NCBI GenBank assembly: GCA_051439605.1
Contig: JBFRWN010000098.1
Coordinates: forward strand, 51,189 to 115,188
Direction of reading: 5' to 3'
Origin: Synechococcus sp.
Lineage (GTDB): Bacteria > Cyanobacteriota > Cyanobacteriia > Thermostichales > PCC-7336
DNA: 64,000 nucleotides
The notes under the pieces were generated by a model. That model saw nothing but the letters and a program-made list of their open reading frames with translations, was not told the DNA's origin and did no database searches. This document shows, one piece after another, positions 2,876 through 64,000 of this stretch. The number at the start of each line of letters is the position of its first letter. Positions within the stretch are counted from its first letter, which is position 1. Made by a program: the position numbers and the translations under genes.

Positions 2876-3784
2876 ATGTTCGGGGCTTTGACAACATGGC
2901 TGCAATCGCTCATTGGTGAGATCTCCGCATCAGTTTTGCTGGACTGGGGATTGGTGATACTCCTAATAGGCTTTGCACTCTACGCTACGCGAAGTACGCG
3001 TGCCGTTTGGCTTGTACGCGGCTACGTTGTCCTGCTCATGCTGGCTTCCCTAACCCGTCCCCTCGAGTTGCTGCATCAAGTCCTGAATGGAGTGCTGATT
3101 GGGGCGGCAGTTGCTTTGGCAGTATTATTTCAACCCGAACTTCGCAAAATGCTCGAGCAATTGGGGCGGGGAGATTGGTTTGAGTTTTTACCAGTGTTGA
3201 TTAAGCCTTCAACCGCGAATAGCAACCGCCGCACCGAGAATGCCCTCGACGAATTAATTCTAGCGGTAAAAGATTTGTCTAAAAACCGCACGGGTGCCCT
3301 GGTCGTGATCGAGCTTGAACAGGCGATCGATCCCCGCATCTTTACCGATGTAGGAGTTGAAATTCAAGGGCAAGTCTCAAAAGAACTCCTCCAAACAATT
3401 TTTCAGACATCCACCCTTTTACATGATGGCGCTGTCCTAATCTCTAGCGATCGCATCAAGGCTGCTGGAGTAATTTTGCCCGTATCAGAACGGGTAGCAT
3501 CCCGTCAGTTGGGGACTCGACACCGAGCAGCCATGGGGATTACCGAACAGGCCACCTGCTTGTGTATTGTAGTTTCTGAAGAAACAGGTTCAATTTCCCT
3601 GGCCGAAGCAGGCCGTCTTCAACGTCCCCTCACAAGCTCTATGCTGAGAGATGCCCTGGTCCAGCGGTTGCGCCCAAAACGGGAACCCAGCCGCGGTGCC
3701 TCTTCTTGGTCAGGTTGGGCCAACAACTTAGCAGGTTCATCGCGTCGTTTTATTACTGCACTGCAGGAAAGGCTGTCTAAATAA
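2876..3784 (+). CDS. cdaA: Diadenylate cyclase (membrane-bound)
   Basis: Three N-terminal TM segments, LHDGA and GTRHRAA DAC motifs; lysA-cdaA-uppS synteny typical of cyanobacteria. Confidence 0.95.
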
Positions 3785-4533
3785 TGACTGCAACCTCCGG
3801 CTTACTCACCCAGCTACCCATCGATTTGGATACAGCCGCGTTGCCCCGACACGTTGCTGCAATCATGGATGGCAACGGTCGCTGGGCCCAACAGCAGAAG
3901 CTGCCAAGAGTCATGGGACATCGAAAGGGGGTTGATGCCCTCAAGGACCTATTGCGCTGTTGCAAAGATTGGGGAATTCCAGCACTAACGGTCTACGCCT
4001 TTTCAACCGAGAATTGGGGACGGCCGCTGGATGAAGTGGATTTCTTGATGGTGCTATTCGAACGCATGCTTAGGGCCGAGTTAGCAGAACTCATCCGTGA
4101 AGATGTGCGCATTCGGTTTGTCGGCAATCTGGATCGCCTCAGGACTTCTCTAAAAGAAGAAATTTCTGGTGCCATGGCTGCAACAGCAGCCAATCAAGGG
4201 GTACAGTTTACTGTCGCCATGAACTATGGCAGTCGGGAAGAGATCGTACGGGCTTGTCGCCGATTAGCGAACCAAGTCAAGGATGGCACGATCGCCCCCG
4301 AGGAGATCACCGAAGAACTCTTTGCCCGCCACCTCTATACCCACGAACTGCAAGATCCTGACTTGTTGATACGCACCAGTGGGGAGCAGAGGCTCAGTAA
4401 CTATTTGCTATGGCAGATGGCCTACACCGAGCAGTATTTCACCTCTACCCTTTGGCCTGACTTCGATCGCGCGGCCTTCCACCAAGCTCTACTCAGCTAT
4501 CAACAGCGCCACCGCCGGTTCGGAAAACTGTAG
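3784..4533 (+). CDS. uppS: Isoprenyl transferase (undecaprenyl diphosphate synthase)
   Basis: [43 protein letters not shown] stop/start overlap with cdaA. Confidence 0.96.
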
Positions 4534-4956
4534 AGACCACCAACAGGTCTACACTGAAGACCCATCCAGCCATCGCAGGAGCAAGCAAGACCTGCAGAAG
4601 TAGGGAGGTACATGGGAGACCTTCTCGATAGCCAAGTCGGTTATGGGTCGATCGTTAGCACGTGCAGGATTTAAGAATGCTTTGGGTCCAGTAATTTTGG
4701 CAGCCATATGGCTCGGCCTCACTCTACATGCCTTTTTCGCCAGTTTTTTGCCCTTACAGAATGCCGGTAGATACCGAGCTTTTGTCCGCATTGACTGCAA
4801 TACAGCTTGTTGAGAACAATAATAAGTTGTTTCCCCATAAATGCCAGCAGTCGCCAAACAGCATGAGAAACTTTGATATGGGGTGAATGTCAAGTGATAA
4901 TCTCGATATCAATTCTACGTACTACATATATCTCTGCGACAAGGGAGAAAACTGTT

Positions 4957-5385
4957 ATGAGAAACCATTGGCTTGCGGGTCTATCTCGCCTTTGCAAAGC
5001 AACCCTAACCTTTATCGTTGGCCTCAGTCTCGTCTGCAACCTAGCGGCCCCTGCTTTTGCCCAGGAAGAAGCAGCGGCCCCTGCAGCCAAAGCTGAAGTT
5101 ACTGAAGTTGACGGTGTTCCCGTTATCGATTTGGAACCAAAGCTCGATCTAAACTACGCAATGTTGCGCCGTTTTCGCGAGCTACCTGGTTTTTACCCTA
5201 CTTTGGGTCAAAAAATTCTTAAGGCCGTGCCTTTCGACTCTGTTGAGGATCTCCTTGAGATGGATGGCTTAACTGAAAAGCAGGTTCGACTCCTCAAAGC
5301 CAACTTCAAAAACTTTGTTGTTGGGGAATATGACGAAGGAGCCAATGACTTTGAAACCCGACTAAACAAGGGCTTCTACGACTAG
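4957..5385 (+). CDS. psbU: Photosystem II 12 kDa extrinsic protein
   Basis: Signal peptide ending APAFA; KLDLN...FRELPGFYPTLG...PFDSVEDLL...RLNKGFY; start moved to ATG 4957 after AGGGAG. Confidence 0.9.
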   Translation: MRNHWLAGLSRLCKATLTFIVGLSLVCNLAAPAFAQEEAAAPAAKAEVTEVDGVPVIDLEPKLDLNYAMLRRFRELPGFYPTLGQKILKAVPFDSVEDLLEMDGLTEKQVRLLKANFKNFVVGEYDEGANDFETRLNKGFYD

Positions 5386-5515: not shown

Positions 5516-6013
5516 ATGGTGCGAGAGCAGATATCGGTACTTGCACTGGATGTGGGAGATCGCCGCATTGGCGTTGCCGGCTGTGACGGCATGGGCCTGA
5601 TAGCCACCGGACTCACCACCATCCATCGCCAAAGCTTCAAAGTCGACATTGAAGCTTTGCGCCAGCTAGTAGTGGAACGACAAGCCCAACGATTTGTGGT
5701 GGGATTGCCCTTCAATATGGATGGCAGCTTGGGGTCCCAGGCGCGCAAGGTCAAAAAGTTTATGAGATCTGTGGTCAAACACATTCCATTACCAGTGGAC
5801 TACGTGGATGAACGCCTCACCACCGTCCAAGCACGTTGGAATCTCAAAGCTGCGGGCATTAAGCTGGGACAATCCAATAAGGGGCTGATAGACCGCGAAG
5901 CTGCCGCAGCCATTCTTCAGCAGTGGCTCGAACAACGTAGGCTGCAACAAGAACGAGAACAAGCTGTAAATCCAATCCCGGAAGATTCTGGAACGGGTAC
6001 CGCGTCACAGTAG
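5516..6013 (+). CDS. ruvX: YqgF/RuvX pre-16S rRNA nuclease
   Basis: LALDVGDRRIGVA, VVGLP, VDERLTT, IDREAA. Confidence 0.92.
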   Translation: MVREQISVLALDVGDRRIGVAGCDGMGLIATGLTTIHRQSFKVDIEALRQLVVERQAQRFVVGLPFNMDGSLGSQARKVKKFMRSVVKHIPLPVDYVDERLTTVQARWNLKAAGIKLGQSNKGLIDREAAAAILQQWLEQRRLQQEREQAVNPIPEDSGTGTASQ

Positions 6014-60661: not shown

Positions 60662-61660
60662 GTGGAAGCGATGATTCCCAAGTTCTACATTCAACCCGAT
60701 AGCGACATTCCCGCATCTCAACAGCTAGCGGGTCAAATTGGTTTTGCAATCGCATCGAAGCAAGTTCTACCGGGCAGCCGCTTGCCCAGCACTCGACAGC
60801 TGGCAATGCAAACGGGCTTGCACCGCAATACCATCACCCGCGTCTACGCTCAGCTGGAAGCAGATGGGTTGATCGAGGCACGAGCAGGCTCGGGAATGTA
60901 TGTGCGCGAGGGGGGAGTCCATGGCTCTGCTGGAGCGAATCTGGAAGGAGATGGCGATCGTTGGACCGAGGCGCGGGGGACCGTGCGCAAGGCGATTGAT
61001 GGATTGAGTCAGTTGGGGTATTCGCTGGCTCAGATTCGCTCGTTGATGGCGGAGGCGATTGATTGGCGGGAACAGTGCGGGGCGCAGGCGATTGTCACAG
61101 TGCCGCTGGAGCAGGAGGGGGTGGGGCGGCTGCTAGAGTTCGAGCTGATGCAAGAGTTGGGGCTGGCGGTGCAGGCCATTGCGCTGGAGAACCTTCCTCC
61201 GGTGTTGGAGGAGAATCCGTCGGTGACGCTGCTGACAACTCGCTATTACTTGCAGGCGGTTGAGACGGTGGCGGCAAAGTATCGAGCCAGGGTGATTCCG
61301 ATTGATGTGAATGCGTACGAGCGGGAGTTGGAGGCGATCGCGGCACTCAGCCCTCACAGTTGCGTAGGGATGGTGTCGATTAGCCCGGAAGTACTGCAGG
61401 TGGCGAAGGTGGTTCTGACCAGTCTGCATGGGGACAGCTTGCTCGTGCTGTCGGCAACTCCAGATGATGGCATGCAGTTGAAGACGGTGGTGCGGCGGTC
61501 GGAGTTGATTGTGTGCGGGCGATCGAGTGTGGAGGTGGTGCAGGGGGTCGTGCGGGAGATGCGATCGCAGTTGATTCGCTTTCCAAAAATCCTGGTTTCA
61601 GATAGCTACATCAGCCAGGATTCGTTGTCGGTACTTGCTCGGGCTCTGGACTTAGATTGA
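60662..61660 (+). CDS. GntR-family regulator, cyanobacterial PlmA type
   Basis: F.IQPDSDIPASQQL...LPSTRQLAMQTGLHRNT...AGSG.YV. Confidence 0.85.
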   Translation: MEAMIPKFYIQPDSDIPASQQLAGQIGFAIASKQVLPGSRLPSTRQLAMQTGLHRNTITRVYAQLEADGLIEARAGSGMYVREGGVHGSAGANLEGDGDRWTEARGTVRKAIDGLSQLGYSLAQIRSLMAEAIDWREQCGAQAIVTVPLEQEGVGRLLEFELMQELGLAVQAIALENLPPVLEENPSVTLLTTRYYLQAVETVAAKYRARVIPIDVNAYERELEAIAALSPHSCVGMVSISPEVLQVAKVVLTSLHGDSLLVLSATPDDGMQLKTVVRRSELIVCGRSSVEVVQGVVREMRSQLIRFPKILVSDSYISQDSLSVLARALDLD

Positions 61661-61717
61661 ATGGCTAGCCCGAGTCTTCCAGAGGTATCTATCAAGGATT
61701 TCGGAGTGAGAAAGAAG

Positions 61718-61927
61718 GTGCGCGGAAACGAACACCTACTTTTGGACTGCAAGATTAATCCGCAGGGCTTCAATAAGGGCAATAGATCTTTGGGAGTTTG
61801 ATTGCTATGGGAAAGGATGAAGCGACCTAATCCACTGCAAATAGGTTGGTTTAGTGAGATGGGAGTAGCCCCCAATCCAGATCGTTTTTCGAAGTGGGTC
61901 TGGTAGCTTCTAAGGTGGTTGAGCCAC
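61718..61927 (-). pseudogene. intI: Integron integrase N-terminal (SAM-like) remnant with 2 stops and 2 frameshifts; catalytic domain absent
   Basis: Manual translation VAQPP*KLPDPLRKTIWIGGYSHLTKPTYLQWIR/RFILSHSNQTPKDL/IEALRINLAVQK*VFVSAH resembles the IntI N-terminus (KLLDQ.R..IR..HYS..TE..Y..WIRRFI.FH...HP.....IEAFL.HLAV...V..STQ); divergent from the cassette. Confidence 0.78.
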
Positions 61928-62154
61928 TGGTTGAAATATTCCAATCAATTTGGGCTGAAAGTTTATTTGGGTATTTTTGCCAGAACCAGAATTTGATGGG
62001 TTGATGTCCAGAGAAAATTCCTGAAATTTCGGGTTTATCCGACATATCGGAGGTGATATACAGAAATTAGTTTGGGATATAAATCTCTACATCGGGGTGA
62101 TGCCGAATCATTCGTGGTATTTACTCAAAATCAGTGTCTTATGCCGCAAGTTCC

Positions 62155-62174
62155 GTCTAAGTAAATAGTTGGTA
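62155..62174 (+). other. Candidate attI site
   Basis: Inverse-core-like GTCTAAG, 6-nt A/T spacer, then GTT (62168); about 240 bp upstream of the intI start. Confidence 0.5.
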
Positions 62175-62326
62175 TTTCATATGAAGGTGTTATACGGCCT
62201 GGAGATGTATAAAATGATCGACAAGCGTGTTATGCGGCCCTAAGACATATATCGCCGCAGAAAGGGGCACTATACGACTTGGAGCCCTTGAATAGTAGTT
62301 ATACCTAATTACCAAGGAAAGCAGAA

Positions 62327-63871
62327 TTGAACAATCCAAAGCTTTTTATATCCTATAGTTGGTCAAATCACGATCACGAGCAACTTGTGCTTCAGATAGC
62401 TACGGAACTGACTGAATCAGGCGTAGATGTAATTTTACTGAAGTTTTGACTATTTCAAAAAATACGCTACTAGTAGCGTCCCAATGTTAAAGTCAGCCAC
62501 TGCATATAGCGTCAAGTTTTATTTTGTTAAATCTCCAGAATTTTAGATAAATGGGATTTAAAAGAAGGACACGATGCCTATACATTCATGGAGAAGATGG
62601 TCAATGACCCTGAAATAGAAAAAGTGGCGATATTTTCAGATAAAACTTACACAAAAAAAGCAGACGGTAGAAGTGGAGGCGTAGGTACAGAAACACAAAT
62701 AATCTCTCGCGAAGTATATGAAAAGCAGGAGCAAGACAAGTTCGTTGTGGTTGTAACCGAAAGGGATGAGAGCGGAAAGGCTTATCTTCCTACATACTAT
62801 AAGTCGAGGATATATATAGATTTAAGTGAGCCTGACTCTTATGCAGATAATTTTGAGAAGCTATTAAGGTGGATATACAACAAACCACTTTACGTAAAAC
62901 CAGAAGTCGGCAAAAAACCTAGCTTTCTAGAAGAAAGCGAAACCGTATCGCTTGGTACCTCCTCAGCATTCAAAAGAGCTATAGATTCGATTAAGAATAA
63001 TAAATCTACAGCGTCAGGCTGCTTCGAGGAATACTTAAGCCTATTTTCAGAAAACCTAGAGCGTTTTCGAGTGCATGATGTGGAAGGTGAAATTGATGAT
63101 GCAATCACCGATAATATCGAAGCATTTATTCCAGCAAGAAATGAATATATTCAGCTAATTATTGCAGTTTCTCAATACAAACCAGTACCAGAATTTGCAG
63201 AAAGAATTCATCGATTTATCGAAAGCCTCATACCATATATGGAAAGGCCAGAACATATAACGTCCTATAATCGTTGGGAGTTCGATAACTACAAGTTTAT
63301 TGTTCACGAGCTGTTTTTATACACTCTCGCTGTATTTTTGAGATATGAGCATTTCGAAATGGCTTCTCCCCTTCTAATGCAGCAATATTTTGTCTCAGGT
63401 AGATCAGAGTATTGTAGGGATACAATGATCGGCTTTGAAAACATTCGGCAATACATGAAATCACTCGAGCATAGGAATAAACGCTTAGAAAAACGAAGGT
63501 TATCGCTTAGAGCTGATTTGCTAAAGGAACGCTGCCACGGAACAGGTATTGATTTTAGGTTTTTGATGCAGGCGGATTTCATTGCTTTTATGCGCGCGGA
63601 GATTTCTGCAAGCGATGGCTCCAGAAAATGGCGGCCTGAGACCCTTCTTTATCTTGGTGATTACGGGAGTTCTTTTGAAATTTTTGCTAGGGCAAAATCT
63701 AAAAAATACTTTGATCGAGTTAAAATTTTGTTGGGTATAGATTCTCCTACCGACCTTACTGAGATTTTGGAGTCCTATCAGCAAGACCGCAGAAGGCTTC
63801 CACACTGGGATTTTAACTCATTTAGCCCTTCTGCGTTATTGGGCTATGAAAGTTTAGCTACTTTGCCGTAA
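62327..63871 (+). pseudogene. TIR/SEFIR-domain protein (probable anti-phage cassette gene) interrupted by a MITE
   Basis: TTG start after AAGGA; MNNPKLFISYSWS..H...VL..A..L..SGVDVIL | DKWDLKEGHD..FMEKMV...KADGRSGGVGTETQIIS; removing 108 bp restores a 478-aa frame. Confidence 0.85.
62438..62538. mobile_element. 101-bp MITE with a 7-bp target-site duplication
   Basis: AATTTTA at 62431-62437 and 62539-62545; ends CTGAAGTTTTGAC vs reverse-complemented CTGGAGATTTAAC (10/13); internal palindrome ACGCTACTAGTAGCGT. Confidence 0.88.
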
Positions 63872-63879
63872 ACGGCATA

Positions 63880-64000
63880 ATCGGGATAGGGAGAATCCTC
63901 ACGAATCCCCCCTCCCACACCACCTGGCATGCGGGTCCGCACCAGGCGGTTCAGCATCACGGAGCAAACATTAATTTGACACCATCAAACGTATCCCTGG
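63880..64000 (-). mobile_element. 3' end (domains V-VI) of a class C group II intron, continuing beyond the window
   Basis: Minus strand reads GAACCGCCTGGTGCGGACCCGCATGCCAGGTGGTGTGGGAGG (short DV with CGC triad), then a DVI stem ending CCCTATCCCGAT. Confidence 0.9.

What the first reader, a model, noticed from the sequence alone, without database searches (positions are those of the whole stretch)
61718..64000. Cryptic cyanobacterial integron: dead intI, attI, a defence cassette and an attC-targeting intron
Seen: a frameshifted IntI-like N-terminus on the minus strand, GTT core sites on the plus strand, an AT-rich gene, and GCATA (first five bases of an R'' GCATAAC box) 4 nt after its stop, complementary to the upstream GTTATGC/GTTATAC cores. 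Known: divergent intI, attI and cassettes ending in attC define integrons, and cassette arrays often carry anti-phage genes. Inference: this is the head of a chromosomal cassette array whose integrase has been deleted down to about 70 codons, so it is frozen or must be serviced in trans. None of this appears in the ORF track.
Basis: partly seen in the sequence, partly recalled or inferred. Interest (0 to 1): 0.9.

Follow-up and report, generated by a model that had tools for sequence, protein, structure and literature searches.

The report
Decayed integron head with defence cassette
This stretch is the worn-out front end of a cyanobacterial integron, a gene-capture platform: its integrase is reduced to a stub, its first captured gene (an anti-phage SEFIR gene also found in proteobacteria) is broken by a small insertion, and a mobile intron has split that gene's recombination site.

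Summary
It is a known kind of element in decay, not a new system.

- **intI stub:** Window 61694-61924 (minus strand) is an IntI N-terminal remnant. A cyanobacterial IntI profile scores it E 2.3e-4 against the whole genome in six frames. It lies in one frame with three in-frame TAG stops and is not frameshifted.
- **attI:** 62072-62171 is homologous to the region upstream of an intact intI in another cyanobacterium. Four TTATRC cores cluster on the plus strand at 62139-62304.
- **Cassette start:** The first cassette starts at G|TT, 62298/62299. Nucleotide homology to the same cassette in Gammaproteobacteria (84-86% aa) begins exactly there.
- **Cargo:** The gene at 62327-63871 is a bSEFIR defence gene (PADLOC E 2e-101). 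A 101-bp insertion with a 7-bp target duplication splits it.
- **Intron:** Its attC is cut in the R'' box (TTGT|T, bottom strand, antisense) by a group II intron that behaves like a IIC-attC intron. The contig ends inside this intron.
- **Continuation:** The rest of the attC, two to three more AT-rich cassettes and the core gene dapL lie on contig C77. Two lines support the link: synteny in a congener and attC homology.

Integron integrases are common in cyanobacteria (95 of 301 genomes sampled). Under IntegronFinder's categories this would be a CALIN with an intI pseudogene. Interest is moderate.

The parts
60662..61660 (+). Left flank: plmA-like GntR-family regulator, a core gene. The integron-like insert begins right after its stop codon.
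   Evidence: Pfam GntR E 7.5e-15. Orthologues at 65-79% identity in 3 of 3 congeners. Homology to congener G003 ends at about 61656.
61694..61924 (-). intI remnant, corresponding to IntI positions about 4-81. It has three in-frame TAG stops, and the rest of the gene (about 240 codons) is absent.
   Evidence: IntI N-terminus HMM E 2.3e-4, 23.8 bits, genome-wide. tblastn 32% identity over 66 aa. Translation. No Pfam or NCBIfam hit.
61925..62298 (+). attI-like region between the intI start and the first cassette. 62072-62171 is homologous to the attI side of an intact intI. KTTATRC cores lie at 62138, 62189, 62229 and 62298, with a degenerate copy near 62270. The crossover G is at 62298.
   Evidence: Local alignment to L054 scores 69, against shuffles of 30.3 +/- 5.2 with a maximum of 53. 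Motif cluster. Direct repeats. The same 40-41-nt spaced cores occur upstream of intI in 4 of 26 other integrons. The homology boundary with L105 and L106 is at 62298.
62299..63879 (+). Gene cassette 1, up to the point where the intron splits its attC. It carries the bSEFIR defence gene.
   Evidence: 76% nt identity to cassettes L105 and L106 over 62298-62437 and 62540-63872. In L105 the same G|TT is the R' of an upstream attC. GC 38.5%.
62327..63871 (+). bSEFIR (bacterial SEFIR/TIR-like) anti-phage gene, interrupted. The N-terminal part (62327-62437) runs into a stop at 62447-62449 inside the insert. The C-terminal part resumes at 62546.
   Evidence: PADLOC PDLC03957: N part E 1.7e-16 (profile 35-72), C part E 2.2e-101 (profile 72-384 of 412). 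Pfam SEFIR and TIR_2 match weakly.
62438..62538 (.). 101-bp MITE-like insertion. The target duplication AATTTTA lies at 62431-62437 and 62539-62545.
   Evidence: The empty site is seen in L105 and L106. An identical copy lies at C17:216053-216152 and two copies of about 75% identity on C51. The imperfect terminal inverted repeats (10 of 13) are read from the sequence.
63875..63879 (+). First five bases (GCATA) of the R'' box of attC1. The remaining AC and the rest of attC1 lie on contig C77:121-187.
   Evidence: With the intron removed in silico, the bottom strand folds into a paired R box, a 2-nt internal loop and an L stem with two single-base bulges. MFE is -16.6 kcal/mol, z -2.76. The covariance model hits C77:121-187 at E 0.002.
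63880..64000 (-). Last 121 nt of a group II intron (domains V-VI at 63880-63951), inserted antisense to the cassette. The contig ends inside it.
   Evidence: RF00029 41.9 bits. An identical end lies on C96. The 5' ends lie on C77, C111 and C104, each after ...TTGT.

Best explanation
This is the head of a small, decaying chromosomal integron inserted between the core genes plmA and dapL.

Shown:
- A stub of the integron integrase gene (about 78 codons, three nonsense codons) lies divergent from the cassettes.
- An attI-like region follows, homologous to that of working cyanobacterial integrons.
- The first cassette begins at G|TT, 62298/62299.
- That cassette carries a bSEFIR anti-phage gene. 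The same cassette is found, flanked by attC sites, in Gammaproteobacteria.
- A 101-bp insertion breaks the gene.
- The cassette's attC is split in its R'' box by a group II intron lying antisense. Its target and orientation are those described for IIC-attC introns.
- The remainder of that attC and two to three further AT-rich cassettes lie on contig C77, ahead of a DUF559 gene and dapL.

Inferred:
- The platform once worked as integrons do: IntI recombines a folded attC bottom strand with attI, so new cassettes enter at the head and are transcribed from the attI side.
- It is now inert in cis. There is no integrase. attC1 cannot fold with about 1.9 kb inserted in R''. A downstream attC has AGC in place of the conserved AAC.
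- The defence gene is probably non-functional.
For: - **intI remnant:** E 2.3e-4 against the whole genome in six frames. Other tyrosine recombinases of the genome do not score.
- **attI:** homology scores 69 against shuffles of at most 53. TTATRC cores cluster. Matching 40-nt spaced cores lie upstream of intact intI genes.
- **Cassette boundaries:** nucleotide homology to L105 and L106 starts at 62298, where L105 has the R' of an upstream attC, and runs to the stop codon.
- **Cargo:** bSEFIR E 2.2e-101 and 1.7e-16, with the two parts abutting at profile position 72. The empty insertion site is seen in L105 and L106.
- **Intron:** RF00029 match. All three 5' junctions in this genome follow ...TTGT in attC-like exons. 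The 12 copies from other genomes have attC-like 5' exons with a covarying 12-bp stem, 11 of 12 pairs showing compensatory changes. 25 of 26 listed 3' exons start with T. The published target is TTGT/T at R'' of the bottom strand, in opposite orientation (PMC7923331 passages; PMC3001079 passages). The IEP of a 92%-identical relative best matches the GsI-IIC RT, E 2e-133.
- **C98 to C77 link:** congener G003 has plmA, DUF559 and dapL within about 625 bp. L105's attC aligns to C77 (34 against a shuffle maximum of 28) but not to C111 (20) or C104 (16).
- **Downstream attCs:** the three best filter-off covariance-model hits in C77:1-4000 are all on the predicted strand at ORF ends.
- **Composition:** cassettes are 36-40% GC and the flanks 57-58%.
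Against: - Curated IntI models (TIGR02249, Pfam) do not detect the remnant. The evidence rests on my own profile, at 23.8 bits.
- Two of the three C77 attC hits are not significant on their own (E 0.25 and 0.71), and a fourth candidate (1731-1783) is only my reading.
- Unconstrained folds of those sites are no more stable than shuffles (z -0.69 to +0.65).
- No sigma-70-like promoter was found in the attI region.
- The intron body is not in the assembly, so this copy's IEP and integrity are unknown.
- The contig link is inferred and not read through. Only 1 of 3 congeners shows plmA next to dapL.
- IntegronFinder's own attC model was not available.
Confidence: 0.88

Rival explanations
1. The cassettes form a CALIN seeded at a secondary site by an integrase encoded elsewhere in the genome. 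On this view no integron platform ever sat here, and the 'intI remnant' and 'attI' are chance resemblances.
For: The genome has other intI genes or pseudogenes (C88, C7, C61, C31) and another cassette array (C111). Curated models miss the remnant. Cury et al. 2016 (PMC4889954 passages) list secondary-site integration as one origin of CALINs, and found recognisable intI pseudogenes near only 15 of 279.
Against: Two independent signals sit where a platform predicts them, in the right order and orientation. The IntI N-terminus scores E 2.3e-4 genome-wide. The attI homology has z of about 7 and lies at a similar distance from the intI start (137-236 nt here, 114-209 nt in L054).
Confidence: 0.06
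2. The AT-rich tail of contig C98 is an assembly or binning chimera, foreign DNA joined to a cyanobacterial contig. On this view it is not part of this genome's plmA locus.
For: The genome has 143 contigs with 4.1% estimated contamination. The region lies at a contig end, has a very different GC content, and its cargo gene is closest to gammaproteobacterial genes.
Against: The intI remnant and attI resemble cyanobacterial ones. The intron family is cyanobacterial, found in 46 of 301 genomes. C77 starts with the complementary half of the same intron and attC and then runs into dapL, matching G003's gene order.
Confidence: 0.03
3. The locus is a generic defence or genomic island acquired by some other mobile element. 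On this view the hairpins after the genes are ordinary terminators and the intron is a terminator-targeting IIC intron.
For: Most IIC introns insert after terminators (PMC4424553 passage). Fold stabilities of the candidate sites are unremarkable. plmA's downstream side is an insertion hotspot, and G001 carries an unrelated 4-kb insert there.
Against: The insertion point lies inside a GTTRRRY-type box (GT|TATGC), with a partner CTAAC 60-80 nt upstream, in all three copies here and in the copies from other genomes. The cassette boundaries coincide with G|TT in relatives. A covariance model trained on other genomes' sites finds attC1, and four sites on C111.
Confidence: 0.03

Closest known systems
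CALIN, or a degraded chromosomal integron with an intI pseudogene (IntegronFinder categories; Cury et al. 2016, PMC4889954, passages read)
   Same: A cluster of attC-bounded, promoterless, mostly single-ORF cassettes in one orientation, with no working integrase nearby. Cury et al. proposed such clusters to be decayed integrons and noted integrons in Cyanobacteria.
   Different: Both an N-terminal intI stub and a recognisable attI survive here. Cury et al. found recognisable intI pseudogenes near only 15 of 279 CALINs, and they searched with the C-terminal profile, which would miss this stub. The array is short and one attC is split by an intron.
Group IIC-attC introns such as S.ma.I2 of Serratia marcescens (Leon et al. 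2010, PMC3001079, passages; Sonbol and Siam 2021, PMC7923331, passages)
   Same: Inserted in the attC bottom strand at R'', at TTGT|T, antisense to the cassettes, in the first cassette of the array. The intron lineage is multi-copy in the genome.
   Different: The host is a cyanobacterium and the 5' end reads GUACG, not GUGYG. This copy's IEP is not assembled, so its place in the IIC-attC clade was not tested. My four searches of the held library turned up no paper that describes such introns in cyanobacteria.
bSEFIR single-gene anti-phage system (Millman et al. 2022 preprint, 10.1101/2022.05.11.491447, passages)
   Same: N-terminal SEFIR/TIR-like domain plus a long C-terminal region. There is a strong full-length match to the PADLOC bSEFIR model.
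   Different: The gene here is interrupted after codon 37 by a 101-bp insertion that brings a stop codon. No function was tested.
Sedentary chromosomal integrons as stores of anti-phage cassettes (preprint 10.1101/2024.07.02.601686; only the search listing and the start of the abstract were seen)
   Same: A defence gene carried as an integron cassette.
   Different: That work concerns large, active arrays. This is a short, decayed array in another phylum.

Membership tests
Complete integron (intI + attI + cassettes) | Intact intI encoding a tyrosine recombinase with the IntI-specific domain | tested here: not met
   Only positions about 4-81 survive, with three TAG stops. TIGR02249 finds nothing on C98 even at E 10.
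Complete integron (intI + attI + cassettes) | attI next to and divergent from intI, with cassette insertion at G|TT | tested here: met
   Homology to the region upstream of an intact intI. The cassette homology boundary is at G|TT 62298/62299. IntI binding was not tested.
Complete integron (intI + attI + cassettes) | Cassette promoter Pc on the attI/intI side | tested here: inconclusive
   The simple sigma-70 scan finds no site in 61600-62330. The scan does not cover other cyanobacterial promoter types.
CALIN (at least 2 attC sites, no intI nearby) | Two or more attC sites on one strand within 4 kb | tested here: met
   attC1 at C77:121-187 plus window 63875-63879 (model E 0.002, canonical fold). 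C77:813-898 (E 0.25, R'' reads AGC). C77:2606-2680 (E 0.71). These are the top three hits and share one strand. IntegronFinder's own model was not available.
Integron gene cassette | The same ORF-plus-attC unit is found in other arrays, with boundaries at G|TT | tested here: met
   L105 and L106 show 76% nt and 84-86% aa identity. Homology starts at the GTT, and L105 has attC-like sites on both sides.
Group IIC-attC intron | Group II ribozyme core (domains V-VI) | tested here: met
   RF00029 41.9 bits against a gathering score of 40. The full-length relative also matches D1-D4 models.
Group IIC-attC intron | Insertion into the attC bottom strand at R'' (TTGT/T), antisense to the cassettes | tested here: met
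   The 5' exon ends CCTTGT and the 3' exon starts TATGCC. The intron is on the minus strand and the cassette on the plus strand. The definition comes from PMC7923331.
Group IIC-attC intron | IEP falls in the monophyletic IIC-attC clade | tested here: inconclusive
   This copy's IEP is not assembled. The IEP of a relative whose intron ends are 92% identical best matches IIC RTs (6AR1 E 2e-133, 7UIM E 3e-105), far ahead of IIA and IIB. No phylogeny with reference IIC-attC IEPs was made.
bSEFIR defence system | Full-length match to the family profile with an N-terminal SEFIR domain | tested here: met
   PADLOC PDLC03957 E 2.2e-101 and 1.7e-16. Pfam SEFIR E 1.6e-4 on the 40-aa piece, just below the cut-off.
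bSEFIR defence system | Uninterrupted ORF and protection against phage | tested here: not met
   The ORF is broken at 62438 with a stop at 62447-62449. Protection cannot be tested with these tools.

The most novel reading that the evidence does not exclude
Cyanobacteria host their own widespread lineage of attC-targeting group IIC introns. Its 5' end was found in 46 of 301 sampled genomes, several times within 3-13 kb of an intI. By splitting the R'' box these introns would lock cassettes in place. Together with intI decay, this would turn integron heads into fixed islands. The cassettes may still be rescued in trans by a second IntI, such as the C7 copy whose visible 258 codons are open. A companion point is that cyanobacterial attI sites seem to be built from tandem 40-nt modules of inverted GTTA-type boxes conserved across genera.
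Probability: 0.3. Interest if true: 0.55.

Novelty: new member of a known kind. Interest (0 to 1): 0.4.

Why it matters
The locus is a clean, fully dissected example of how an integron dies. The integrase is cut to a stub, the cargo is hit by a small transposable element, and the recombination site is split by an intron, yet every boundary can still be read.

It shows that one anti-phage cassette (bSEFIR) is shared between cyanobacterial and gammaproteobacterial arrays at 84-86% protein identity. This fits the view that integrons move defence genes across phyla.

It also points to two features of cyanobacterial integrons that the library searches did not find described: an intron lineage that targets attC sites, and a modular attI. 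For genome annotation, it explains a contig break, since the intron is multi-copy, and an AT-rich region lacking called genes.

Tried and rejected
- **Curated models on the remnant:** Pfam and NCBIfam scans of the two longest minus-strand ORFs and of the X-bridged translation gave nothing.
- **DNA comparison with this genome's C88 and C7 integrons:** no nucleotide similarity to the window region. The remnant is therefore not a recent copy of those.
- **Loose regex for attC:** it gave 205 mostly spurious hits and was dropped.
- **My own fold-based attC scanner:** it found sites on C111 and C88 but missed the C77 sites.
- **Fold z-scores:** they do not discriminate attC sites. Even a site with model E 9e-6 has z +1.33. 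I therefore gave them no weight, except for the shape of attC1.
- **Covariance model in the window:** model R1 (trained on 12 attC halves from other genomes) finds no complete attC in window 61400-64000. This is expected if that region is attI plus one cassette.
- **Assigning contigs by R-box complementarity:** it could not decide which of C77, C111 or C104 follows the window. Synteny and attC homology decided.
- **Earlier notes of the scan on this genome:** they concern an unrelated locus.
- **Paper not held:** Leon and Roy 2009 (PMC2714756) is not in the library.
- **Not run:** no read-level check of the contig junction was made.
Full report
**Setting.** The window is G000:C98:51189-115188, and contig C98 ends exactly at window base 64000. 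The genome has 143 contigs and 51% GC. The finding therefore lies at a contig end, and part of the answer had to be sought on other contigs.

**The observation.** The plus strand carries a GntR-family gene at 60662-61660 (Pfam GntR E 7.5e-15).

Downstream, tblastn with this genome's own integron integrase (C88) hits the minus strand at 61721-61915, 32% identity over 66 aa, in one frame. The frame holds three TAG stops. Curated models (TIGR02249, Pfam, NCBIfam) do not see it.

I therefore built a profile from the first 115 residues of 30 cyanobacterial IntI proteins: C88 plus 29 from other genomes. I searched it against all 97,482 six-frame chunks of the genome, with stops read as X. The window locus (61694-61924, profile positions 4-81) scores 23.8 bits, E 2.3e-4. 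Only the true intI genes on C88 and C7 and another N-terminal remnant on C31 rank higher. The next hit is noise at E 0.38, and the genome's other tyrosine recombinases do not appear. The IntI-like N-terminus is real. It is riddled with nonsense codons but not frameshifted, and the remaining 240 or so codons are gone: the remnant ends 34 nt from the plmA stop.

**attI.**
- TTATRC occurs four times on the plus strand between 62139 and 62304. The whole 64-kb window holds 38 on both strands.
- The cores are embedded in direct repeats of 25, 15 and 14 nt.
- Read away from intI, window 62072-62171 aligns with positions 114-209 upstream of an intact intI in another cyanobacterium (L054). The score is 69, against 30.3 +/- 5.2 and a maximum of 53 in 200 shuffles.
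- Among 26 usable intI-upstream regions, 4 show the same pairs of KTTAKRC cores spaced 40-41 nt apart: L053, L054, L056 and L037.
- The covariance model finds no complete attC in 61400-64000.

This region is therefore best read as attI.

**The cassette and its cargo.** The AT-rich gene (62327-63871; the cassette is 38.5% GC against 58.5% for plmA) matches PADLOC's bSEFIR model in two pieces that abut at profile position 72. Residues 1-37 give E 1.7e-16 and the part from 62543 gives E 2.2e-101. bSEFIR is a single-gene anti-phage system (Millman et al. preprint, passages).

A scan of one genome per species found 24 relatives. The closest reach 84-86% protein identity, in Vreelandella lutescens (L105) and a Cellvibrionaceae MAG (L106). 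At the DNA level (76%), homology to both starts at window 62298, the G of GTTATACC. In L105 that G|TT is the R' end of an upstream attC-like hairpin. This fixes the attI/cassette junction at 62298/62299 and shows that the unit is a mobile cassette.

The same alignments skip window 62438-62539 and overlap by 6 nt in the relatives. The gene is therefore split by a 101-bp element (62438-62538) flanked by a duplicated AATTTTA. An identical copy lies on C17 and two copies of about 75% identity on C51. The insert brings a stop at 62447-62449.

**The intron.** RF00029 (group II domains V-VI) matches 63880-63951 on the minus strand. The last 121 nt of C98 are identical to the end of C96. The intron's 5' end lies at the ends of C77 and C111 and near the end of C104, each time as ...TTGT|GTACGCCCGG. 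The body is not in the assembly: only one unrelated maturase match exists, on C13.

All three 5' exons carry a CTAAC box 60-85 nt upstream of the junction. The window's 3' exon starts TATGCC, so the uninterrupted site reads GT|TATGC on the bottom strand and GCATA|AC on the top strand.

The same intron family is found in other cyanobacteria: the 5' end in 46 of 301 sampled genomes and the 3' end in 37 of 301.
- Among 15 distinct 5' junctions (three here, twelve elsewhere), 9 end in TTGT, 3 in GTGT, 2 in GGT and 1 in GTG.
- 25 of 26 listed 3' exons begin with T, and 11 begin with TAG.
- The twelve foreign 5' exons align to a common hairpin. Of its 12 pairs, 11 show compensatory changes, and there are two single-base bulges.

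This matches the published definition of group IIC-attC introns: bottom strand, R'' box, TTGT/T, antisense to the cassettes (PMC7923331 and PMC3001079, passages). A full-length relative (G215, about 1.94 kb, ends 92% identical) has D1-D4 matches. Its IEP best matches the GsI-IIC RT (6AR1, E 2e-133) and 7UIM (E 3e-105), far ahead of IIA (1e-40) and IIB (2.5e-25) proteins. I made no tree against reference IIC-attC IEPs, so clade membership remains open.

**Where the array continues.** Two independent results point to C77.
1. In congener G003, plmA is followed within about 625 bp by a DUF559 gene and dapL. Homology to G000 resumes at C77:3006. G001 has a different insert after plmA, and in G002 the two genes are apart.
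2. The attC that follows the homologous cassette in L105 aligns to the first 80 nt of C77 after the intron, with a score of 34 against shuffles of 16.7 +/- 2.8 and a maximum of 28. It does not align to C111 (20) or C104 (16).

With the intron removed in silico, the bottom strand of attC1 folds into a paired R box, a 2-nt internal loop, an L stem with two single-base bulges and a terminal loop (-16.6 kcal/mol, z -2.76).

A covariance model trained only on the twelve foreign attC halves, run without filters on C77:1-4000, gives its three best hits on the predicted strand at ORF ends: 121-187 (E 0.002), 813-898 (E 0.25) and 2606-2680 (E 0.71). Everything below these is noise at E 1.3 or worse. 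The second site reads AGC where AAC is expected. A possible fourth site (1731-1783) has CTT in place of GTT and is only my reading.

The cassette ORFs are a 164-aa and a 162-aa protein without family matches and a 257-aa SAM methyltransferase. Their GC is 36-40%, against 57% for dapL.

**Mechanism.** The anatomy is shown. What follows is inferred from what is established for integrons and IIC-attC introns.
- A complete integron once sat here and captured cassettes at attI.
- The integrase gene was then truncated and decayed.
- The intron split R'' of attC1, so the bottom strand can no longer fold into a substrate.
- A small element broke the defence gene.

Whether another IntI could still act on the downstream sites is open. 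C88's intI has TAA at codon 31, where relatives have Tyr. C7's copy is open for its visible 258 codons but is cut by the contig start.

**Comparison and novelty.**
- Integron integrases pass the curated cut-off in 95 of 301 sampled cyanobacterial genomes.
- Cury et al. 2016 already list Cyanobacteria among integron hosts and describe CALINs and intI pseudogenes.
- Defence cassettes in chromosomal integrons are in print (listing only).
- IIC-attC introns are well described in other phyla.

All parts are thus known kinds, and this is a new member. My searches found no paper that describes attC-targeting introns or attI architecture in cyanobacteria. The library lacks most subscription journals, and I did not see supplements of the IntegronFinder papers, which may list cyanobacterial elements.

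**Verdict.** Confidence in the decayed-integron reading is about 0.88, and interest is moderate (0.4).

Noticed in passing
G000 contig C88:1-5282 (L018): A second integron. Its full-length intI (451.8 bits) carries a TAA at codon 31 where relatives have Tyr. A GTTAGAC core lies about 107 nt upstream, and there are attC-like sites at 3207-3317 and 1837-1926.
   Followed up: partly
G000 contig C111 (L015), whole 5.8 kb: A cassette array without intI. The covariance model hits 5651-5704 (bearing an intron), 5167-5248 (E 9e-6), 4476-4567 and 2357-2437, and the fold scan adds a site at 415-503. Between these sites lie genes that look like ordinary metabolism, among them a pyrC-like gene and a GATase.
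   Followed up: partly
G000 C7:4-771, C61:32905-33165, C31:about 3300-3600: Further intI pieces. One copy is cut at codon about 59 by a contig start, with its visible 258 codons open. There is also a C-terminal fragment and a frameshifted N-terminal remnant. Congeners G001 and G002 also carry intI fragments.
   Followed up: partly
Loci L060-L104 (other cyanobacterial genomes): The intron family is widespread: 5' end in 46 of 301 genomes, 3' end in 37 of 301. Several copies lie 3-13 kb from an intI, in G215, G219, G265 and G002.
   Followed up: partly
window 63862-63872 and L075:5381-5391: The 3' exons of the window's intron copy and of the G215 copy share the 11-nt palindromic stretch CCGTTTACGGC at almost the same offset, overlapping the stop codons of two unrelated cassette genes. 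This is unexplained.
   Followed up: no
G001:C80:1-5642 (L027): In a congener, the site downstream of plmA holds a different insert of about 4 kb (a subtilisin-like peptidase on the other strand), followed by a duplicated 250-bp plmA 3' end. The site therefore looks like an insertion hotspot.
   Followed up: partly
G000 C77:2700-3450 (L016): The DUF559 endonuclease-like gene (3045-3416) is bracketed by inverted C/G-rich repeats. It is also present between plmA and dapL in G003, so it predates or is independent of the integron.
   Followed up: no
window 61700-61945, minus strand: All three stops in the intI remnant's frame are TAG. This is probably chance.
   Followed up: no
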